This document shows, piece by piece, positions 25,345 through 31,300 of a stretch of DNA of 64,000 bases (positions within the stretch are counted from its first letter, which is position 1; each line of letters opens with the position of its first letter). Source of the stretch: Octopus sinensis (taxonomy: Eukaryota); the NCBI RefSeq assembly GCF_006345805.1, contig NC_042998.1, positions 112,902,001 to 112,966,000 of the forward strand, written 5' to 3'. Position numbers: made by a program.

Positions 25345-28300
25345 CCCACACAAACATGCGTGCAAGTAATTTATTTTACCTTTTGTTCATCAAAATTCTT
25401 ATTCGAAGCACTAACTTGTTTCATTTTCCTTTGTATAAGTTTAAATTTAAAACGAATACTTATTCCTATAAATTTCGCTTCCAAACCAACAAGAAAACAC
25501 AAACTCAGTGATATTTTACAATACATCGGACATACACCATAACATCAATATTGTTAGCTAAACATATGGCGGCGTAAATTTCTCAATCAAGTACAGTTAA
25601 CTTGCACGATTATTTTTGATGCACATGAACAGAAGCGAAACTACGCAACAAAAGTATGCGCAAGCATGCGGGTATGCATATAATCAAGGGTATTTCAACT
25701 AATATATATATATAATAGTACCCGATGGCGAGGTTTGACATACACACAAGAAAAAAAAAGAAGTTACGATACGAGAAAATCTCTATGCGGCCGACTGATA
25801 TGCTAGAGATATCACTGTCTTAAATAAGAGTACACAGGGTAGGCAGGATGGTCACGTCTGGAACACTGATGGTTAATTTGGGTTAAACTGACTGTTACTA
25901 TATAAGGTTTCCTATCTGATCTCAGAGATTTGTAAGTGTAATTAAATGATCATACAACAGTCCACGACAGAATGAGATTAATTTGATAACCAGCTGGCTT
26001 ATGATTATTTGTTAAATGAGAAATATCAAGGTATTAGAACAATATTTAGTATATTTCACAGTTACCTTGTATTCTCTTTCATCAACGATCATAATTGTAG
26101 ACCAATTCTAATCACTGGATATATTCGAAATAATGATTTATAATGTAGGTGCAAATCCACGAATGTTATGGAAGCTCTATTACCGAGTATACGGACGATA
26201 ACACATTCGGAAAAACTTCTGCTATTACTTTACTTGCTTTATCGATTTCCCGGAAGGACGAAAGGCGAAGTCGACCATGACCGAACTTGGAACATTTGAA
26301 ATAGTAAAACGAATAAAGAGGTGATTATAAAGCGAATACACGAGAGAAAGTTTCAGTACTTACATCTGACAGAATGGAAAGCAACTCTAGGATTCGGATC
26401 AAAGCTTGCTCCAAGTCTAAGTTCAACAACACTATTGTCTTCTGCCATGACGAGACAAGCTAGAGTTGCGAAGGACCACGCTAAAATAGAAAAAGTTATT
26501 TACAACAAAAACAGGAACTAAGAGAACCAATGTTATCTATCGAAAGAGATAGATGTGCGTAAAGAAAAGCATTTGTATGCATGTGAATAGTAGAGATGTC
26601 GAAAAATATCTCGATTGGGACAGGAACTATGAGTAGAGAGAGAATGTCAACAGACTCTGAAGTGGGACATGAAAATAATAGACATTGAAGAGCTCGGTAA
26701 TAAAGAGAAATAACTCTTAGGCACCTCCCGCTTTACGGGAACGTTGCGTTCTGTAATTGTACCGTAATGTGGGATTCCGTGAAACGAAAATCAATTTCCC
26801 ATTGATTTCGATGTTATAAGGCTTTCCGATGAATTTCTTTTCTTCGAGAAATATTACATTAGGATACATATCACAAAATATGTCAGTCGGTAGGGTGCAA
26901 TGGGAATTACTTGGAGAAAAAAGGACACTATTTTCTATTCTGCAGAACATAATCATCACTATTTCAAGGGTGACAAACATTCAAAGTTGTTCAACATTTA
27001 CAGTACGCCATTTCGTTGAACAGCTCCTGTGTGGGGACTGAACTCAGTATATAGTCCTTTTGTAATTTTACGTTCACATTTCACAATTATGATTGTCATC
27101 GGCAAAGATTTGCAAATCTTATCCGGTAAATTCCAACCCTTTAGCTATATTCTTGAAAGTCAACTGAAAAGGACCCAGTGGAGCTTCTATATCCTCTTAC
27201 TAAGCATTCTGCTCCTCTAAAAGAATCAGCTTCCTAGACAAACTTCCTCTATGGGACCTGAGCAACTAATCAATTAATCTACAATTTATAGTAACATCTG
27301 ATATAGAGATCTGACTGCTGAATATTCCCACTAAACCCTTCTGTTTGTGGAAAATCTATAAAACCCCTGATATAAACCGGACATATATTTTCCAAATTAA
27401 ACAACATTCATATCGCTGAAAGATTCACTTCATTTTGTGACTCGACTGTAGTTCCTATCAATTGCTTTTTTATGAATTGTTTCGAAATTCTGATATGATA
27501 TATTGTGAAACTTGCTATCACACTATAGTTCATTGATTGGAGCAAAGAAATCGTGTTCTTGGGAATATACTCCACTCTCACATTATTAGAAAGCACTTTT
27601 AATTTCACTGAATGGCTAAGTATTGTCTAAAACGAGAAAAACTTTCTGGGAAACATTACACGAGACACAGCAGGGTAGGAAAGTTTGTAAACCAGTATCG
27701 CAAAAGGCTCATAGTCCCTCAAGACTTTCTATTTGAATGTCAGATCATAGGTAGATTAAATTTTGCATAACCTTCGAAAATCATTGTATTTTTGGAGTAA
27801 GGGTAGTAATTTCACATCAATAGTAGCATTTCCTTCAACAAGATGCGCAAGACGACTTTTGAAACTTTAACAACCCGATGCTAAGTTTTCTTCACTTGAA
27901 ATAAAAGTTCTAACAGACATGTAGACTCATAAAATCCTATTTTTATCAATACTGTATATTTGTTCTGGTATGTAGCCTACTTCAGCAATTATTTTCCCCA
28001 GCTCCGCAGAATAATAATTACTACAGGTTCTGTTTCAGCATTGTCAGTTTCACAGGTCAGTGTGCAAAATTAGGCGTTTATTTTACCTTTCAGACCAGAT
28101 TTTACTGGCCAGACAAGGTTTTGCATCAAAAGTTGCACTTTCCCCTTCTTGCAAACCATCAAACAAGCTCTCAGCTTTCGCTTAAACAATCATTATTTTT
28201 ATTGTCATATTGTGTCCAGTTTGATTGTCAATCCGCTCTCTCTGGAGGAGGAGGAGCTTTAGAAAAAGTGATCAATTATAATTATTGAATAATGTTCATT

Positions 28301-31300
28301 GTTATATATAGTGCTCCAGCTTAATCTAGATTGGTGTAATAGAGGGAAACAGGAATATTTTGCGGACATCGAATTCATTGGAATTTAGAAAGACAAATTT
28401 CAATTTCTTTTTCTCCAGAAGGGCAAGGATTTTCTTCATTTCATTAGCTGTAACACACTACGTAGAATATAATTCTTGCATGTCTCAATTCCTTATAATT
28501 ATATATTTATTATTTTTTTCGCTTTTAAAACTATGGATTTTTATACTTACGTTTCTGTTTACTTTCTATTGTTTCAGAGATAGGTATTCTCATATTTTTA
28601 TGTAAGTGAAAAGAAGACTGAATATCAGAAATACTATGGTAATGCTTCTCGACATCCTCTAAAACATTTGGATGACACCTTTCCTTGAATCTTCTTAAAT
28701 GGTTAGGTTCGGGACATAAAGCTGATTGTAGAAATTTCTGTTTATTGTTGAGATTAAGAGTCTGTAAACCATTATTTGATGTTGGTTTCTTTTCCAGAAA
28801 TTCAAAATCTGTTGAATGAAAATGCTCTTCTAGACGATCTGAAGTCCCACGATACATTGCATTTAGCCGTCTTCTCACAAGTTGTCGCTGCTCCACTCTA
28901 TAATACGGCCACGCAGCATCAACTTCCTTCCAAGCAGGAATAGTCAAAGTAAATCGCTGTCTTTTGTAACATGTAGATACTTCACTTAATTTAAATTCAA
29001 AGGATTTTTTGTCATTTTCGGAAATGCCATGTCTTTTCAATAATCGAAGTAGTTCACACTTGTTATATGGTCGAAGAGCTAACAAATGAATAATTCTCTT
29101 TCGTAATGATGATTTCCTAACGTACGAGGGAATATGTAACTCATTACTCAATGAAAATGAAGATTCCCCAGATAAATTGTCAGATATTAAGGCCTTATTA
29201 TTCCAGCCATCACAAAGTGATGCATTAAAATTCGAAACCTCATTATCTGAATGCGAGAGAAATTTTTTGTATTTAAGATTCTTTGATAGACAAATCTCTT
29301 TCGCAGGTTTCTTTTTCGCTTCTTCCACGTGCATTCTTTTTCTGAATTCTTTAAACGAATCACGATTTCCATGCATAACTAGTTTATGAGTGATACACCC
29401 TAAAGAACTGATACAGTTTTCATTTTTTGACAGCACTTGCTGGAGACAATAAAAAACGCCATTGACTTTACCTTGTACACAATATAAGTTAAAATGAAAT
29501 GTATATTGTTCGCTATCTGTCTCTAAAGGACATACAGGAATTTGAATAAAACCTGTACCATCGTTATATATTTTAATAGTGGGATGCAGACAACTCTCTG
29601 TTGCGTTTCTTAAAAAATCTTGCAGTTTTCCTAAAATGGACTCTGTAAAAACTGCGTGTATGATAGTTTTGTCGTCTTCACAGGAAGTCGACAGAGTATA
29701 CAGAGGATGTTTTTCTAATGTTGACATAGTGGAAACAAACGACCTTCTTGCTTGATTAATTCCGAAATGCTTATTTTTTAATATTTTCAGAACTATATTA
29801 GTTCAAAGCTGTTTCTATTGTATCTACCCCAGTTTGATGACGTCATAATTAGTTTGACGTTTTATTTGTGAAATTTTTATTGCAAAATCACTGATACCAG
29901 TTTTATCTTCAATATCCATTCTTCAAAAGTCCGTAGTTACCCACATACTAACAAGCGGGTGTAATTATTAAAATTCATATCTAAATTAACTTACATCTTT
30001 TTTGTAACTTTTCTAAAATAACTGTTTTATACATGTTTCATTAAAGAAAAGCTGCTTGCCAGTTACAAATTGCAAACAGTCAAACCGGGAAATTTCAATG
30101 AATTACATAATTGAATTTCTCAAAACTGTAGTCGTTTTAAAAATGCTTATCATTCTGATCTGGAAAGAACGGCTGTGCTCATGGCTTTGACAAGCCCTCC
30201 AAAACCAGTGAAACCGACCCAGTTAATGTTCCACCGGTATTGTCTTAAATTGACGGTTGCAGTAAGAAAAATGCATGAAGAGAATTCCGGACGACCGACA
30301 TTTCGGAAAGAAACAATTAGAAGCTGATAGGGTAGAACCTGAACTCAATATTGGGAACAAGAGGACATAGATGTATGAGTTTCAATGAATGTAACACGAG
30401 CTCGGTCAAGCAGCCAGCTCTCAGGACCTGATGATGCCACGGTAATGAGTGGTAGGAAACGAGGAGATAGGAAACATATCTATATGCCAGAGGTTGTAGT
30501 GTGTTGCTGAACCACTTCATTGTGGTACTCACATGAGCTTGGTAGAGAATCAGTTGTTCTTTGGTTGATATGTATGTATTCACATATCCATACATACAAG
30601 CATACACGCATACATACACAACCAAGACTTGCACACACGCACACATATCCCCCAAAAAAGCCTCCCTTTTTTGTTTGCTTGCTTTCATTAATTTTTTTTT
30701 AAACAAGACTATTCGGATCTTTACCTTTTGACTGGAAGATACTGGTAGAATGTGTCATATTAAACATCTTTTACTCTTAGGGTTTTTGAGAAAAGTTTAT
30801 ATTTACGAAGTTATTTCGTGTTAAAGTTCTCGTATTAGGCTAATTTCAACCAATCAATGACGTCTATTGAGCTGAATAAAGTTACTGCTGTTGTTTGTCA
30901 ACAACAACTTCCGGCGGTGTATATTTCGTTTGTCATTGTTATCTATGACATATTTCATCTCAGTTACGCTTGTATGAGTAAACGAGTGTATCTGAAGCAT
31001 GTTTACTTCATGGCACCACCATAATCGTTCATGCATTTCTACTGCTTTTAGTTTTTTTTTCCTGTTTTTCAGCTATTATTTTCGGAAATACTTTTTTGCA
31101 CCCCCACCCCTACCCCTCCAATTTCTTCATTTTTCATTTTTTTCCGTAACTCTAACCCTAAAACCCCAACCCTAACCCTAACCTAAAACCTTAACCCTAA
31201 CCCCAACCCTAAAGCCCTAACCCTAAAATCCTAGCCCTAAAACCCTAAACCTAACCCTAATCCTAAAACCCTAACCCTAAAATCCTAACCCTAAAACCAT

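What the first reader, a model, noticed from the sequence alone, without database searches (positions are those of the whole stretch)
26364..29727. An ELL paralog sits 2 kb upstream of, and co-oriented with, its binding partner EAF
Independently of any fusion, two subunits of one complex lie in tandem (ELL-like stop at 28531, EAF ATG at 26448) in a window that is otherwise mostly repeats with only one other gene. I know of no general ELL-EAF linkage in animals. Chance adjacency is improbable, which suggests selection for co-expression: a shared enhancer, a bicistronic or read-through transcript, or the ELL-like promoter driving EAF in one tissue.
Basis: partly seen in the sequence, partly recalled or inferred. 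Interest (0 to 1): 0.78.

Follow-up and report, generated by a model that had tools for sequence, protein, structure and literature searches.

The report
Octopus ELL-like exon spliced onto EAF
In octopuses an intronless, shortened copy of the transcription elongation factor ELL lies just upstream of the gene for its partner EAF, and gene models splice the two in frame into one protein, so the neighbours look like one chimeric gene.

Summary
[quoted passage not shown] EAF starts 2,082 bases downstream on the same strand (ATG 26448) and runs over seven exons to 4213.

The adjacency cannot be separated from the fusion. A GTAAGT donor ten codons before the ELL-like stop and an AG acceptor 32 bases before the EAF ATG join the frames. 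The window matches the 644-aa O. sinensis model XP_029655880.2 over all 389 ELL-like residues. O. vulgaris and two O. bimaculoides models use the same junction.

In Argonauta hians the two genes have consecutive accessions on one contig, so the arrangement predates that split. The copy evolves about three to four times faster than canonical ELL2. It keeps its frame (2 of 2000 neutral simulations do), and its folded domains are the best conserved parts.

No other fused form turned up among 1.84 billion representative proteins. A complex prediction supports ELL-like/EAF pairing (0.80; best control 0.00), though a like complex is solved.

I saw no reads. How much fusion product is made, compared with separate products, is open. 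I rate it a new variant of a known kind, of moderate interest.

The parts
28551..29727 (-). ELL-like coding exon, intronless, 1177 bases. It holds the N-terminal ELL/EAF-pairing domain (about residues 1-140), a linker, a winged-helix domain (about 206-290) and a poorly conserved tail (291-389).
   Evidence: ORF. Pfam ELL E 6.1e-43. PDB matches to ELL2 in 7OKX (two stretches) and to 2DOA/2E5N. One uninterrupted tblastn alignment with canonical ELL2 residues 1-389. 389 of 389 residues identical to XP_029655880.2.
28545..28550 (-). Splice donor GTAAGT, directly after the C at 28551 (phase 1), ten codons before the ORF's own stop.
   Evidence: Read. Used by models P0001, P0002, P0128 and P0130.
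28531..28533 (-). The ELL-like ORF's own TAG stop, reached only if the intron is not spliced out. An AATAAA lies at 28506-28511.
   Evidence: The unspliced tail differs in another octopus (P0129).
26481..28550 (-). Intron of 2,070 bases between the ELL-like exon and EAF exon 1. It could also hold an EAF-only promoter.
   Evidence: Within the window only one weak repeat match, 27515-27658. No remnant of an occludin-homology domain. CpG observed/expected is 1.23 at 26600-26799.
26364..26480 (-). EAF exon 1 as used in the fusion. The acceptor AG is at 26481-26482 after a pyrimidine-rich tract. 32 bases give, with the C of 28551, the 11-residue linker PWSFATLACLV. The EAF ATG is at 26446-26448, and the donor follows the T at 26364.
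23086..23180 (-). EAF exon 2 (95 bases).
   Evidence: Exon-wise tblastn with P0002; AG/GT ends read.
16799..16935 (-). EAF exon 3 (137 bases).
14584..14747 (-). EAF exon 4 (164 bases).
7822..7974 (-). EAF exon 5 (153 bases).
7011..7058 (-). EAF exon 6 (48 bases).
4213..4256 (-). EAF exon 7, coding part with the TGA stop at 4213-4215.
   Evidence: The exon lengths add up to 723 bases, or 241 codons, for EAF alone, and to 1,932 bases, or 644 codons, for the fusion. The latter is the length of P0130.
29838..29845 (.). TGACGTCA palindrome 111 bases upstream of the ELL-like ATG, a possible promoter element. Weak evidence.
   Evidence: 2 matches in the window against 0.64 expected; 14 of 100 shuffles reach 2.

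Best explanation
The two neighbours are one chimeric transcription unit. In an ancestor of Octopus and Argonauta, a copy of the cephalopod ELL gene came to lie just upstream of EAF, the protein that pairs with ELL's N-terminal domain. The copy has no introns, so it was probably made by retroposition (inferred). [quoted passage not shown] Transcripts that start upstream of the ELL-like ORF splice from a GTAAGT donor ten codons before its stop to an acceptor 32 bases before the EAF ATG. The result is a 644-aa single chain: ELL N-terminal domain, winged helix, a loose tail, an 11-residue linker, then complete EAF (shown in the sequence and in gene models; no reads seen). I infer that the ELL-like N-terminal domain and the EAF N-terminal domain pair within the chain, forming the same module that binds the lobe of RNA polymerase II in the human ELL2-EAF1 complex. 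Without the occludin-homology domain the protein should not dock on the AFF scaffold of the super elongation complex. It would then be a free-standing elongation module (inferred). EAF alone is probably also made, from a second promoter next to exon 1, to serve canonical ELL2 (inferred, weak).
For: One search shows the donor, the acceptor with its pyrimidine tract, and the matching frame. The exon lengths add up to 644 codons.

Four protein models use this exact junction: O. sinensis XP_029655880.2, O. vulgaris CAI9717901.1, and O. bimaculoides XP_014781336.1 and UniProt A0A0L8GG99. The window is 389 of 389 identical to the first. No EAF-only protein of O. sinensis or O. vulgaris appeared among the 120 listed hits under 354 aa, nor in the 2-member cluster.

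Argonauta has consecutive accessions on one contig.

Several results point to constraint:
- Octopus and Argonauta ELL-like are 65.8% identical over 325 residues with 0 gaps.
- Only 2 of 2000 substitution-only neutral simulations to that identity stay open, with a mean of 7.5 stops.
- Against Argonauta the winged helix is 87.1% identical and the N-terminal domain 67.9%, against 46.2% for the linker and 40.5% for the tail.
- The unspliced tail after the donor is not conserved in P0129.

On origin, there is one uninterrupted alignment to canonical ELL2 residues 1-389. The tree split of {ELL-like + octopod ELL2} against {scallop, scorpion, aphid, cichlid} has support 97/96.

On pairing, complex prediction gave a score of 0.80 with the best of 3 controls at 0.00. 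That mark was reached by 51 of 78 solved complexes and 2 of 108 mismatched pairs. The runs agree in at least 92% of contacts and the partner's pLDDT is at least 79.

From the literature (passages only): the ELL2-EAF1 dimerization domains bind the Pol II lobe (PMC10716050). Deleting the N-terminal 44 residues of ELL strongly reduces EAF1 binding, and deleting the occludin-homology domain abolishes binding to EAF1 and to the super elongation complex (PMC9638944).
Against: I saw no RNA reads, only predicted models, and the models are not fully independent. The O. vulgaris pipeline aligned the O. bimaculoides UniProt proteome, which holds the older fused model (PMC10700109 passages).

The Argonauta annotation keeps two separate genes; its ELL-like model is partial and ends before the junction.

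The ELL-like ORF has its own stop ten codons after the donor, and an AATAAA follows about 20 bases later. An ELL-like-only message is therefore possible.

CpG observed/expected around EAF exon 1 is 1.2-1.5, against 0.53 for the window (small counts). This fits a separate EAF promoter.

The only read-assembly-derived protein of this ORF (P0129) is the unspliced reading.

An open, in-frame junction of 11 codons would arise by chance about one time in five (my arithmetic: 1/3 times (61/64)^11).

The O. vulgaris model starts at Met132 and so lacks the pairing domain.

The complex prediction may pass from memory of 7OKX. It shows likeness, not that this copy binds, and the tool did not use my alignments.

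In human cells, ELL without its occludin-homology domain lost EAF1 binding. Pairing in trans may therefore be weak without the tether.
Confidence: 0.6

Rival explanations
1. These are two separate genes kept in tandem. The ELL-like protein (398 aa, ending at its own stop) and EAF (241 aa, from its own promoter) are made separately and pair in trans. The fused models reflect minor read-through transcripts or over-merging by annotation pipelines. Adjacency would then be kept by shared regulation, or simply by lack of rearrangement.
For: The ELL-like ORF has its own stop, followed by AATAAA. Argonauta annotates two genes. CpG is enriched around EAF exon 1. The EAF start MAEDN is the same as in EAF-only cuttlefish-cluster proteins. 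P0129 is the unspliced reading. The O. vulgaris pipeline used O. bimaculoides proteins as evidence.
Against: Four models from three species use one exact, canonical, in-frame junction. No EAF-only Octopus protein was listed. The tail after the donor is not conserved as coding sequence. Human ELL without the occludin-homology domain lost EAF1 binding (PMC9638944 passages), which makes a tether more useful.
Confidence: 0.3
2. The main product lacks the ELL pairing domain. Transcription starts inside the ELL-like ORF, as in the O. vulgaris model that begins at Met132. EAF then gains only a winged-helix domain and a tail at its N-terminus and stays free to pair with canonical ELL2.
For: P0002 starts at Met132 of the ORF. 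The winged helix is the best conserved part, at 87.1% against Argonauta.
Against: The N-terminal domain is also conserved (67.9% against Argonauta, 98.6% against O. bimaculoides) and keeps residues invariant across ELLs. The O. sinensis and both O. bimaculoides models start at Met1. A cDNA truncated at its 5' end would give the same model.
Confidence: 0.06
3. The ELL-like ORF is a dead retrocopy, or the adjacency is an assembly error.
For: The copy is intronless, truncated relative to ELL and fast-evolving.
Against: The frame is open in four taxa with 0 gaps against Argonauta, while only 2 of 2000 neutral simulations stay open. Conservation follows the domain layout. The adjacency is seen in four assemblies.
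Confidence: 0.03

Closest known systems
Human ELL2-EAF1 heterodimer on RNA polymerase II (PDB 7OKX, 7OKY)
   Same: The same two families are involved. The ELL-like ORF matches ELL2 chain M in two stretches (E 2e-16). Argonauta EAF, 91.6% identical to the window's EAF, matches EAF1 chain O (E 1.6e-41). The predicted interface uses the N-terminal domains of both.
   Different: Here the two are joined in one chain by splicing. The ELL part has no occludin-homology domain and is only about 39% identical to the octopus's own canonical ELL2.
Canonical octopod ELL2 (O. sinensis XP_029658272.1, 578 aa; Argonauta GAB1610530.1, 645 aa)
   Same: They share the ELL domain and the winged helix, are collinear over residues 1-389, and are nearest in the tree. 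ELL2 lies on a contig of the same length (207,928,902 bases) in O. sinensis.
   Different: The canonical genes keep Occludin_ELL (E 1.1e-25) and evolve slowly: 89.9% between Octopus and Argonauta, against 65.8% for the copy. In Argonauta the canonical gene is on another contig.
Chimeric genes built from a retrocopy that joined a neighbouring gene's exons, and 'Rosetta stone' fusions of interacting proteins (both recalled from general knowledge, no call)
   Same: An intronless copy supplies a new 5' coding exon to an existing gene. The fused parts are known binding partners that are separate proteins in other animals.
   Different: Retroposition is inferred only from the lack of introns. No poly(A) remnant or target-site duplication was sought, and the copy is complete at its 5' end and truncated at its 3' end, the opposite of the usual retrocopy.
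Vertebrate ELL3, a short ELL paralogue (recalled, no call)
   Same: It is a lineage-specific, shorter ELL paralogue of similar length.
   Different: As I recall, ELL3 keeps the occludin-homology domain and is not joined to EAF. This was not tested here.

Membership tests
ELL family (RNA polymerase II elongation factor ELL) | N-terminal ELL domain (Pfam PF10390) | tested here: met
   E 6.1e-43, residues 10-288, profile positions 5-278 of 282. The same in P0130 and in Argonauta P0003.
ELL family (RNA polymerase II elongation factor ELL) | Winged-helix middle domain as in solved structures 2DOA and 2E5N | tested here: met
   phmmer E 1.2e-11 and 1.5e-09, query residues 203-294. The RIIHLLALRPY block is invariant in the 8-sequence alignment.
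ELL family (RNA polymerase II elongation factor ELL) | C-terminal occludin-homology domain (Pfam PF07303), needed for docking on the super elongation complex | tested here: not met
   No match in the ORF or in P0130, while canonical P0004 matches at E 1.1e-25. tblastn with four canonical ELLs finds no remnant in the window.
ELL family (RNA polymerase II elongation factor ELL) | Binds EAF through its N-terminal domain | tested here: inconclusive
   Complex prediction gave a score of 0.80 with the best of 3 controls at 0.00. That mark was reached by 51 of 78 solved complexes and 2 of 108 mismatched pairs. Contacts agree in at least 92% and the partner's pLDDT is at least 79. A like complex (7OKX) is solved, so the pass may come from memory.
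ELL family (RNA polymerase II elongation factor ELL) | Stimulates elongation by RNA polymerase II | not testable with these tools
   This needs an in vitro transcription assay.
EAF family | N-terminal EAF domain (Pfam PF09816) | tested here: met
   P0130 residues 412-510, E 1.6e-23. All seven exons were found in the window at 94-100% identity to P0002.
Spliced fusion (conjoined or chimeric) gene | Canonical GT-AG junction that joins the two reading frames | tested here: met
   Donor C|GTAAGT at 28551/28550, acceptor AG| at 26481/26480, 11 open codons up to the EAF ATG. The lengths add up to 644 codons.
Spliced fusion (conjoined or chimeric) gene | Transcripts that cross the junction | not testable with these tools
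   I saw only annotated models and no reads. The annotation of PMC10700109 used Iso-Seq and RNA-seq, but also O. bimaculoides proteins.
Spliced fusion (conjoined or chimeric) gene | The parts are separate proteins in related lineages | tested here: met
   EAF-only proteins of 237-240 aa occur in Argonauta and in a cluster that holds a cuttlefish EAF. 1 of 120 listed hits carries both Pfam domains. Of 150 listed representatives, only P0001 crosses the junction.
Retrocopy | No introns where the parent gene has them | tested here: inconclusive
   The copy is one uninterrupted alignment. The exon structure of octopus ELL2 could not be fetched, since no eukaryotic genome collection was on hand.
Retrocopy | Poly(A) remnant and target-site duplication | not tested
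   These are expected to have decayed, and the 3' part of the copy is missing.

The most novel reading that the evidence does not exclude
In octopods the fusion is the main, or in some tissues the only, form of EAF. It would be a covalent single-chain ELL-EAF elongation factor that has shed the domain tying ELL to the super and little elongation complexes. Octopods would then run a scaffold-independent branch of RNA polymerase II elongation control found in no other sampled animal.
Probability: 0.15. Interest if true: 0.7.

Novelty: new variant of a known kind. Interest (0 to 1): 0.5.

Why it matters
ELL and EAF are separate proteins wherever they have been studied. A natural chain that joins them and drops the scaffold-docking domain is a ready-made experiment: it asks what the ELL-EAF module does on its own. 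It is also a clean case of a lineage-specific chimeric gene in octopods, in which the new exon came from the binding partner of the gene it joined. It explains the odd database names given to this locus ('uncharacterized protein', 'EAF1-like isoform X2', 'ELL-like'). For the scan, the lesson is that a tandem pair of interacting subunits should first be checked for a splice that joins them.

Tried and rejected
- Whole-frame translations sent to Pfam were not accepted because they contain stops. I used ORF-wise references and exon-wise tblastn instead.
- A search for a decayed occludin-homology domain in the intron or elsewhere in the window, using four canonical ELLs, found nothing beyond chance-level hits (E above 1).
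- The window self-comparison gave one weak repeat match inside the intron (27515-27658) and no transposon explanation for the intron.
- A search of the intron against the phage collection was off target and found nothing.
- The bacterial promoter/terminator scan was not used because it does not apply to this organism.
- CpG content and the TGACGTCA site are too weak to place promoters.
- Paper searches for ELL/EAF with octopus, cephalopod, Rosetta stone or the accession numbers returned nothing relevant: searches found 0 papers, and of the 18 papers one search found, none of the 10 listed is on this topic.
- One search found 0 papers for 'dimerization module'.
- dN/dS could not be computed for lack of nucleotide sequence from other species. 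I used a neutral-drift simulation and identity by domain instead.
- The Atlas search on the side ORF at 48117-49280 gave scores of 0.78-0.80 only, which is no more than a lead.
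Full report
**Observation.** On the minus strand there is an ATG-initiated ORF of 398 codons at 28531-29727. It matches the Pfam ELL domain (PF10390, E 6.1e-43, residues 10-288) and has no occludin-homology domain. It also matches solved ELL2 in 7OKX in two stretches and the ELL winged-helix structures 2DOA and 2E5N. The frame MAEDNSVVELRLGASFDPNPRVAFHSVR opens at 26448, which is 2,082 bases downstream on the same strand, and ends at a GTAAGT donor after base 26364. Exon-wise tblastn with an octopus EAF-containing protein finds six more exons down to 4216, at 94-100% identity. 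Their AG/GT ends were read.

**The two are joined by a splice.** The ELL-like frame contains C|GTAAGT at 28551/28550, ten codons before its own TAG. A pyrimidine-rich tract ending in AG| lies at 26481, 32 bases before the EAF ATG. Joining C with the next two bases gives Pro. Ten further open codons then lead into the EAF Met, giving the linker PWSFATLACLV. I did not build the joined sequence. The spliced model was checked exon by exon and by arithmetic. The pieces measure 1177 + 117 + 95 + 137 + 164 + 153 + 48 + 41 = 1,932 bases, which is 644 codons.

**Database models.**
- A protein search with the ORF returned 10 hits.
- Cluster look-ups and sequences show that O. sinensis XP_029655880.2 ('uncharacterized protein LOC115229709', 644 aa) is exactly this fusion. 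The window is identical to it over all 389 ELL-like residues, so the window is most likely O. sinensis.
- O. vulgaris CAI9717901.1 (513 aa, starting at Met132 of the ORF) uses the same junction. So do O. bimaculoides XP_014781336.1 (431 aa, ending with EAF exon 1) and the older O. bimaculoides model A0A0L8GG99.
- Among the 120 listed proteins under 354 aa that match the EAF part, none is from O. sinensis or O. vulgaris. O. bimaculoides contributes only a 127-aa fragment.
- These are predictions and I saw no reads. The O. vulgaris annotation combined Iso-Seq, RNA-seq, ab initio calls and aligned O. bimaculoides proteins (PMC10700109, passages), so the models are not fully independent.
- I opened no supplements. 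The annotation files and transcript tracks behind these models would bear directly on the claim.

**Age and constraint.**
- Argonauta hians has an ELL-like model (GAB1604857.1, partial, 327 aa) and an EAF model (GAB1604858.1, 240 aa). Their accessions are consecutive and both lie on a contig of 30,166,387 bases. This points to adjacency there too. Orientation and junction could not be seen.
- For O. sinensis against Argonauta, identities are 65.8% for ELL-like (325 residues, 0 gaps), 91.6% for EAF and 89.9% for canonical ELL2. Against O. bimaculoides they are 95.6% for ELL-like and 99.0% for ELL2. The copy therefore evolves three to four times faster than its parent.
- It is nevertheless constrained. 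In substitution-only neutral simulations run to 65.8% identity, 2 of 2000 kept the frame open, with a mean of 7.5 stops.
- Conservation follows the domain layout. Against Argonauta the winged helix is 87.1% identical and the N-terminal domain 67.9%, against 46.2% for the linker and 40.5% for the tail.
- In a read-assembly-derived protein of another octopus (P0129, the unspliced reading), the sequence after the donor differs in frame and length. That is what one expects if this stretch is intron.

**Origin.** Canonical O. sinensis ELL2 aligns to the ORF as one uninterrupted stretch over residues 1-389. No occludin-homology remnant is found anywhere in the window. An 11-row tree used named sequences plus P0129; unnamed representative hits were left out. 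It puts the ELL-like clade next to octopod ELL2, apart from scallop, scorpion, aphid and cichlid ELLs (support 97/96), on a very long stem. No decapodiform or Nautilus ELL was available, so the duplication is dated only as after the split from bivalves and before the Octopus-Argonauta split. Retroposition is inferred from the lack of introns. The parent's exon structure could not be fetched.

**Distribution.**
- Of the 120 listed hits (of 297 found) to the 513-aa fusion in the 282-898 aa range, 1 carries both Pfam domains, and that one is the query itself.
- A full HMMER scan of 1.84 billion representatives with the 644-aa protein gave 792 hits at E up to 0.001. Of the 150 listed, 9 match the ELL part and 141 the EAF part. 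Only the Octopus representative P0001 spans the junction.
- That table shows only the best stretch per protein. However, no other row has the score a double match would give.
- EAF-only proteins of 237-240 aa exist in Argonauta and in a cluster that includes a cuttlefish EAF.
Synteny at the DNA level in other cephalopods and molluscs therefore stayed unchecked.

**Mechanism.**
- Passages in PMC10716050 state that the ELL2-EAF1 dimerization domains bind the lobe of RNA polymerase II (PDB 7OKX).
- Passages in PMC9638944 report two things. Deleting the N-terminal 44 residues of human ELL strongly reduces EAF1 binding. Deleting the occludin-homology domain abolishes binding to both EAF1 and the super elongation complex.
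- The octopod protein keeps the first element and lacks the second.
- A complex prediction with ELL-like residues 1-145 and EAF residues 404-520 of P0130 supports binding but does not show it. The score was 0.80 with the best of 3 controls at 0.00. That mark was reached by 51 of 78 solved complexes and 2 of 108 mismatched pairs. The runs agree in at least 92% of contacts and the partner's pLDDT is at least 79. The tool did not use my alignments.
- A like complex is solved, so this pass may only show likeness. The interface pairs ELL-like 19-29 and 89-100 with EAF 481-490 and 423-436.
- I infer a single chain in which the two N-terminal domains pair in cis across about 260 intervening residues. 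This would give a polymerase-binding module that cannot dock on the AFF scaffold.
- A second, EAF-only promoter next to exon 1 is likely but is supported only by CpG enrichment.

**Rivals.** The main rival is two separate genes whose products pair in trans, with the fusion a minor read-through product. It is supported by the ORF's own stop and nearby AATAAA, the Argonauta annotation, the CpG pattern and the unspliced P0129. I give it 0.3. A form that lacks the pairing domain (Met132 start) gets 0.06. A dead copy or an assembly error gets 0.03.

**Literature.** Searches for ELL/EAF with octopus, cephalopod or Rosetta stone, for 'ELL-associated factor' with octopus, and for the accession numbers found no paper on this locus.

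**Verdict.** It is a new variant of a known kind, a chimeric gene that joins binding partners. Interest is 0.5.

Noticed in passing
window 31147-31377, with 30739-30951, 31419-31631 and 44088-44428: A telomere-like (TAACCC)n array of about 35 units lies 1.4 kb upstream of the ELL-like ATG. It is flanked by inverted copies that are 89.7% identical. A related 343-base copy lies at 44088-44428 (86.9% identical). It looks like a repeat family that carries an interstitial telomere-like tract.
   Followed up: partly
window 48117-49280 (+): An intronless stop-to-stop ORF of 387 codons with no Pfam family. The Atlas feature search gives only 0.78-0.80, with Death-domain clusters among the hits, so this is a lead and nothing more.
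   Followed up: partly
window 60429-61385 (+) and 955-1293 (-): Retroelement fragments: reverse transcriptase RVT_1 (E 2.6e-20) and a weak endonuclease-reverse transcriptase match (E 4.8e-4, below the curated cut-off).
   Followed up: no
window 29838-29845: A TGACGTCA palindrome (CRE-like; the name is recalled) lies 111 bases upstream of the ELL-like ATG. There are 2 in the window against 0.64 expected, and 14 of 100 shuffles reach 2.
   Followed up: partly
window 26000-26799 and 29000-29799: CpG observed/expected is 1.2-1.5 in most 200-base windows around EAF exon 1 (0.74 at 26400-26599). It is about 1.1-1.25 in three of four windows over the 5' half of the ELL-like exon (0.57 at 29400-29599). 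The window mean is 0.53. Counts are small, 3-11 per 200 bases.
   Followed up: partly
P0004 and P0130 (O. sinensis); P0131 and P0002 (O. vulgaris): Canonical ELL2 and the ELL-like::EAF fusion are reported on contigs of the same length in both species (207,928,902 and 215,602,707 bases). They therefore probably share a chromosome. The O. vulgaris accessions are 554 apart.
   Followed up: no
window 21742-22425 (-) and 61902-62001: A 228-codon open frame made of (TA/TATA)-type simple repeats, not a gene. A run of 100 N lies at 61902-62001 and was left as it is.
   Followed up: no
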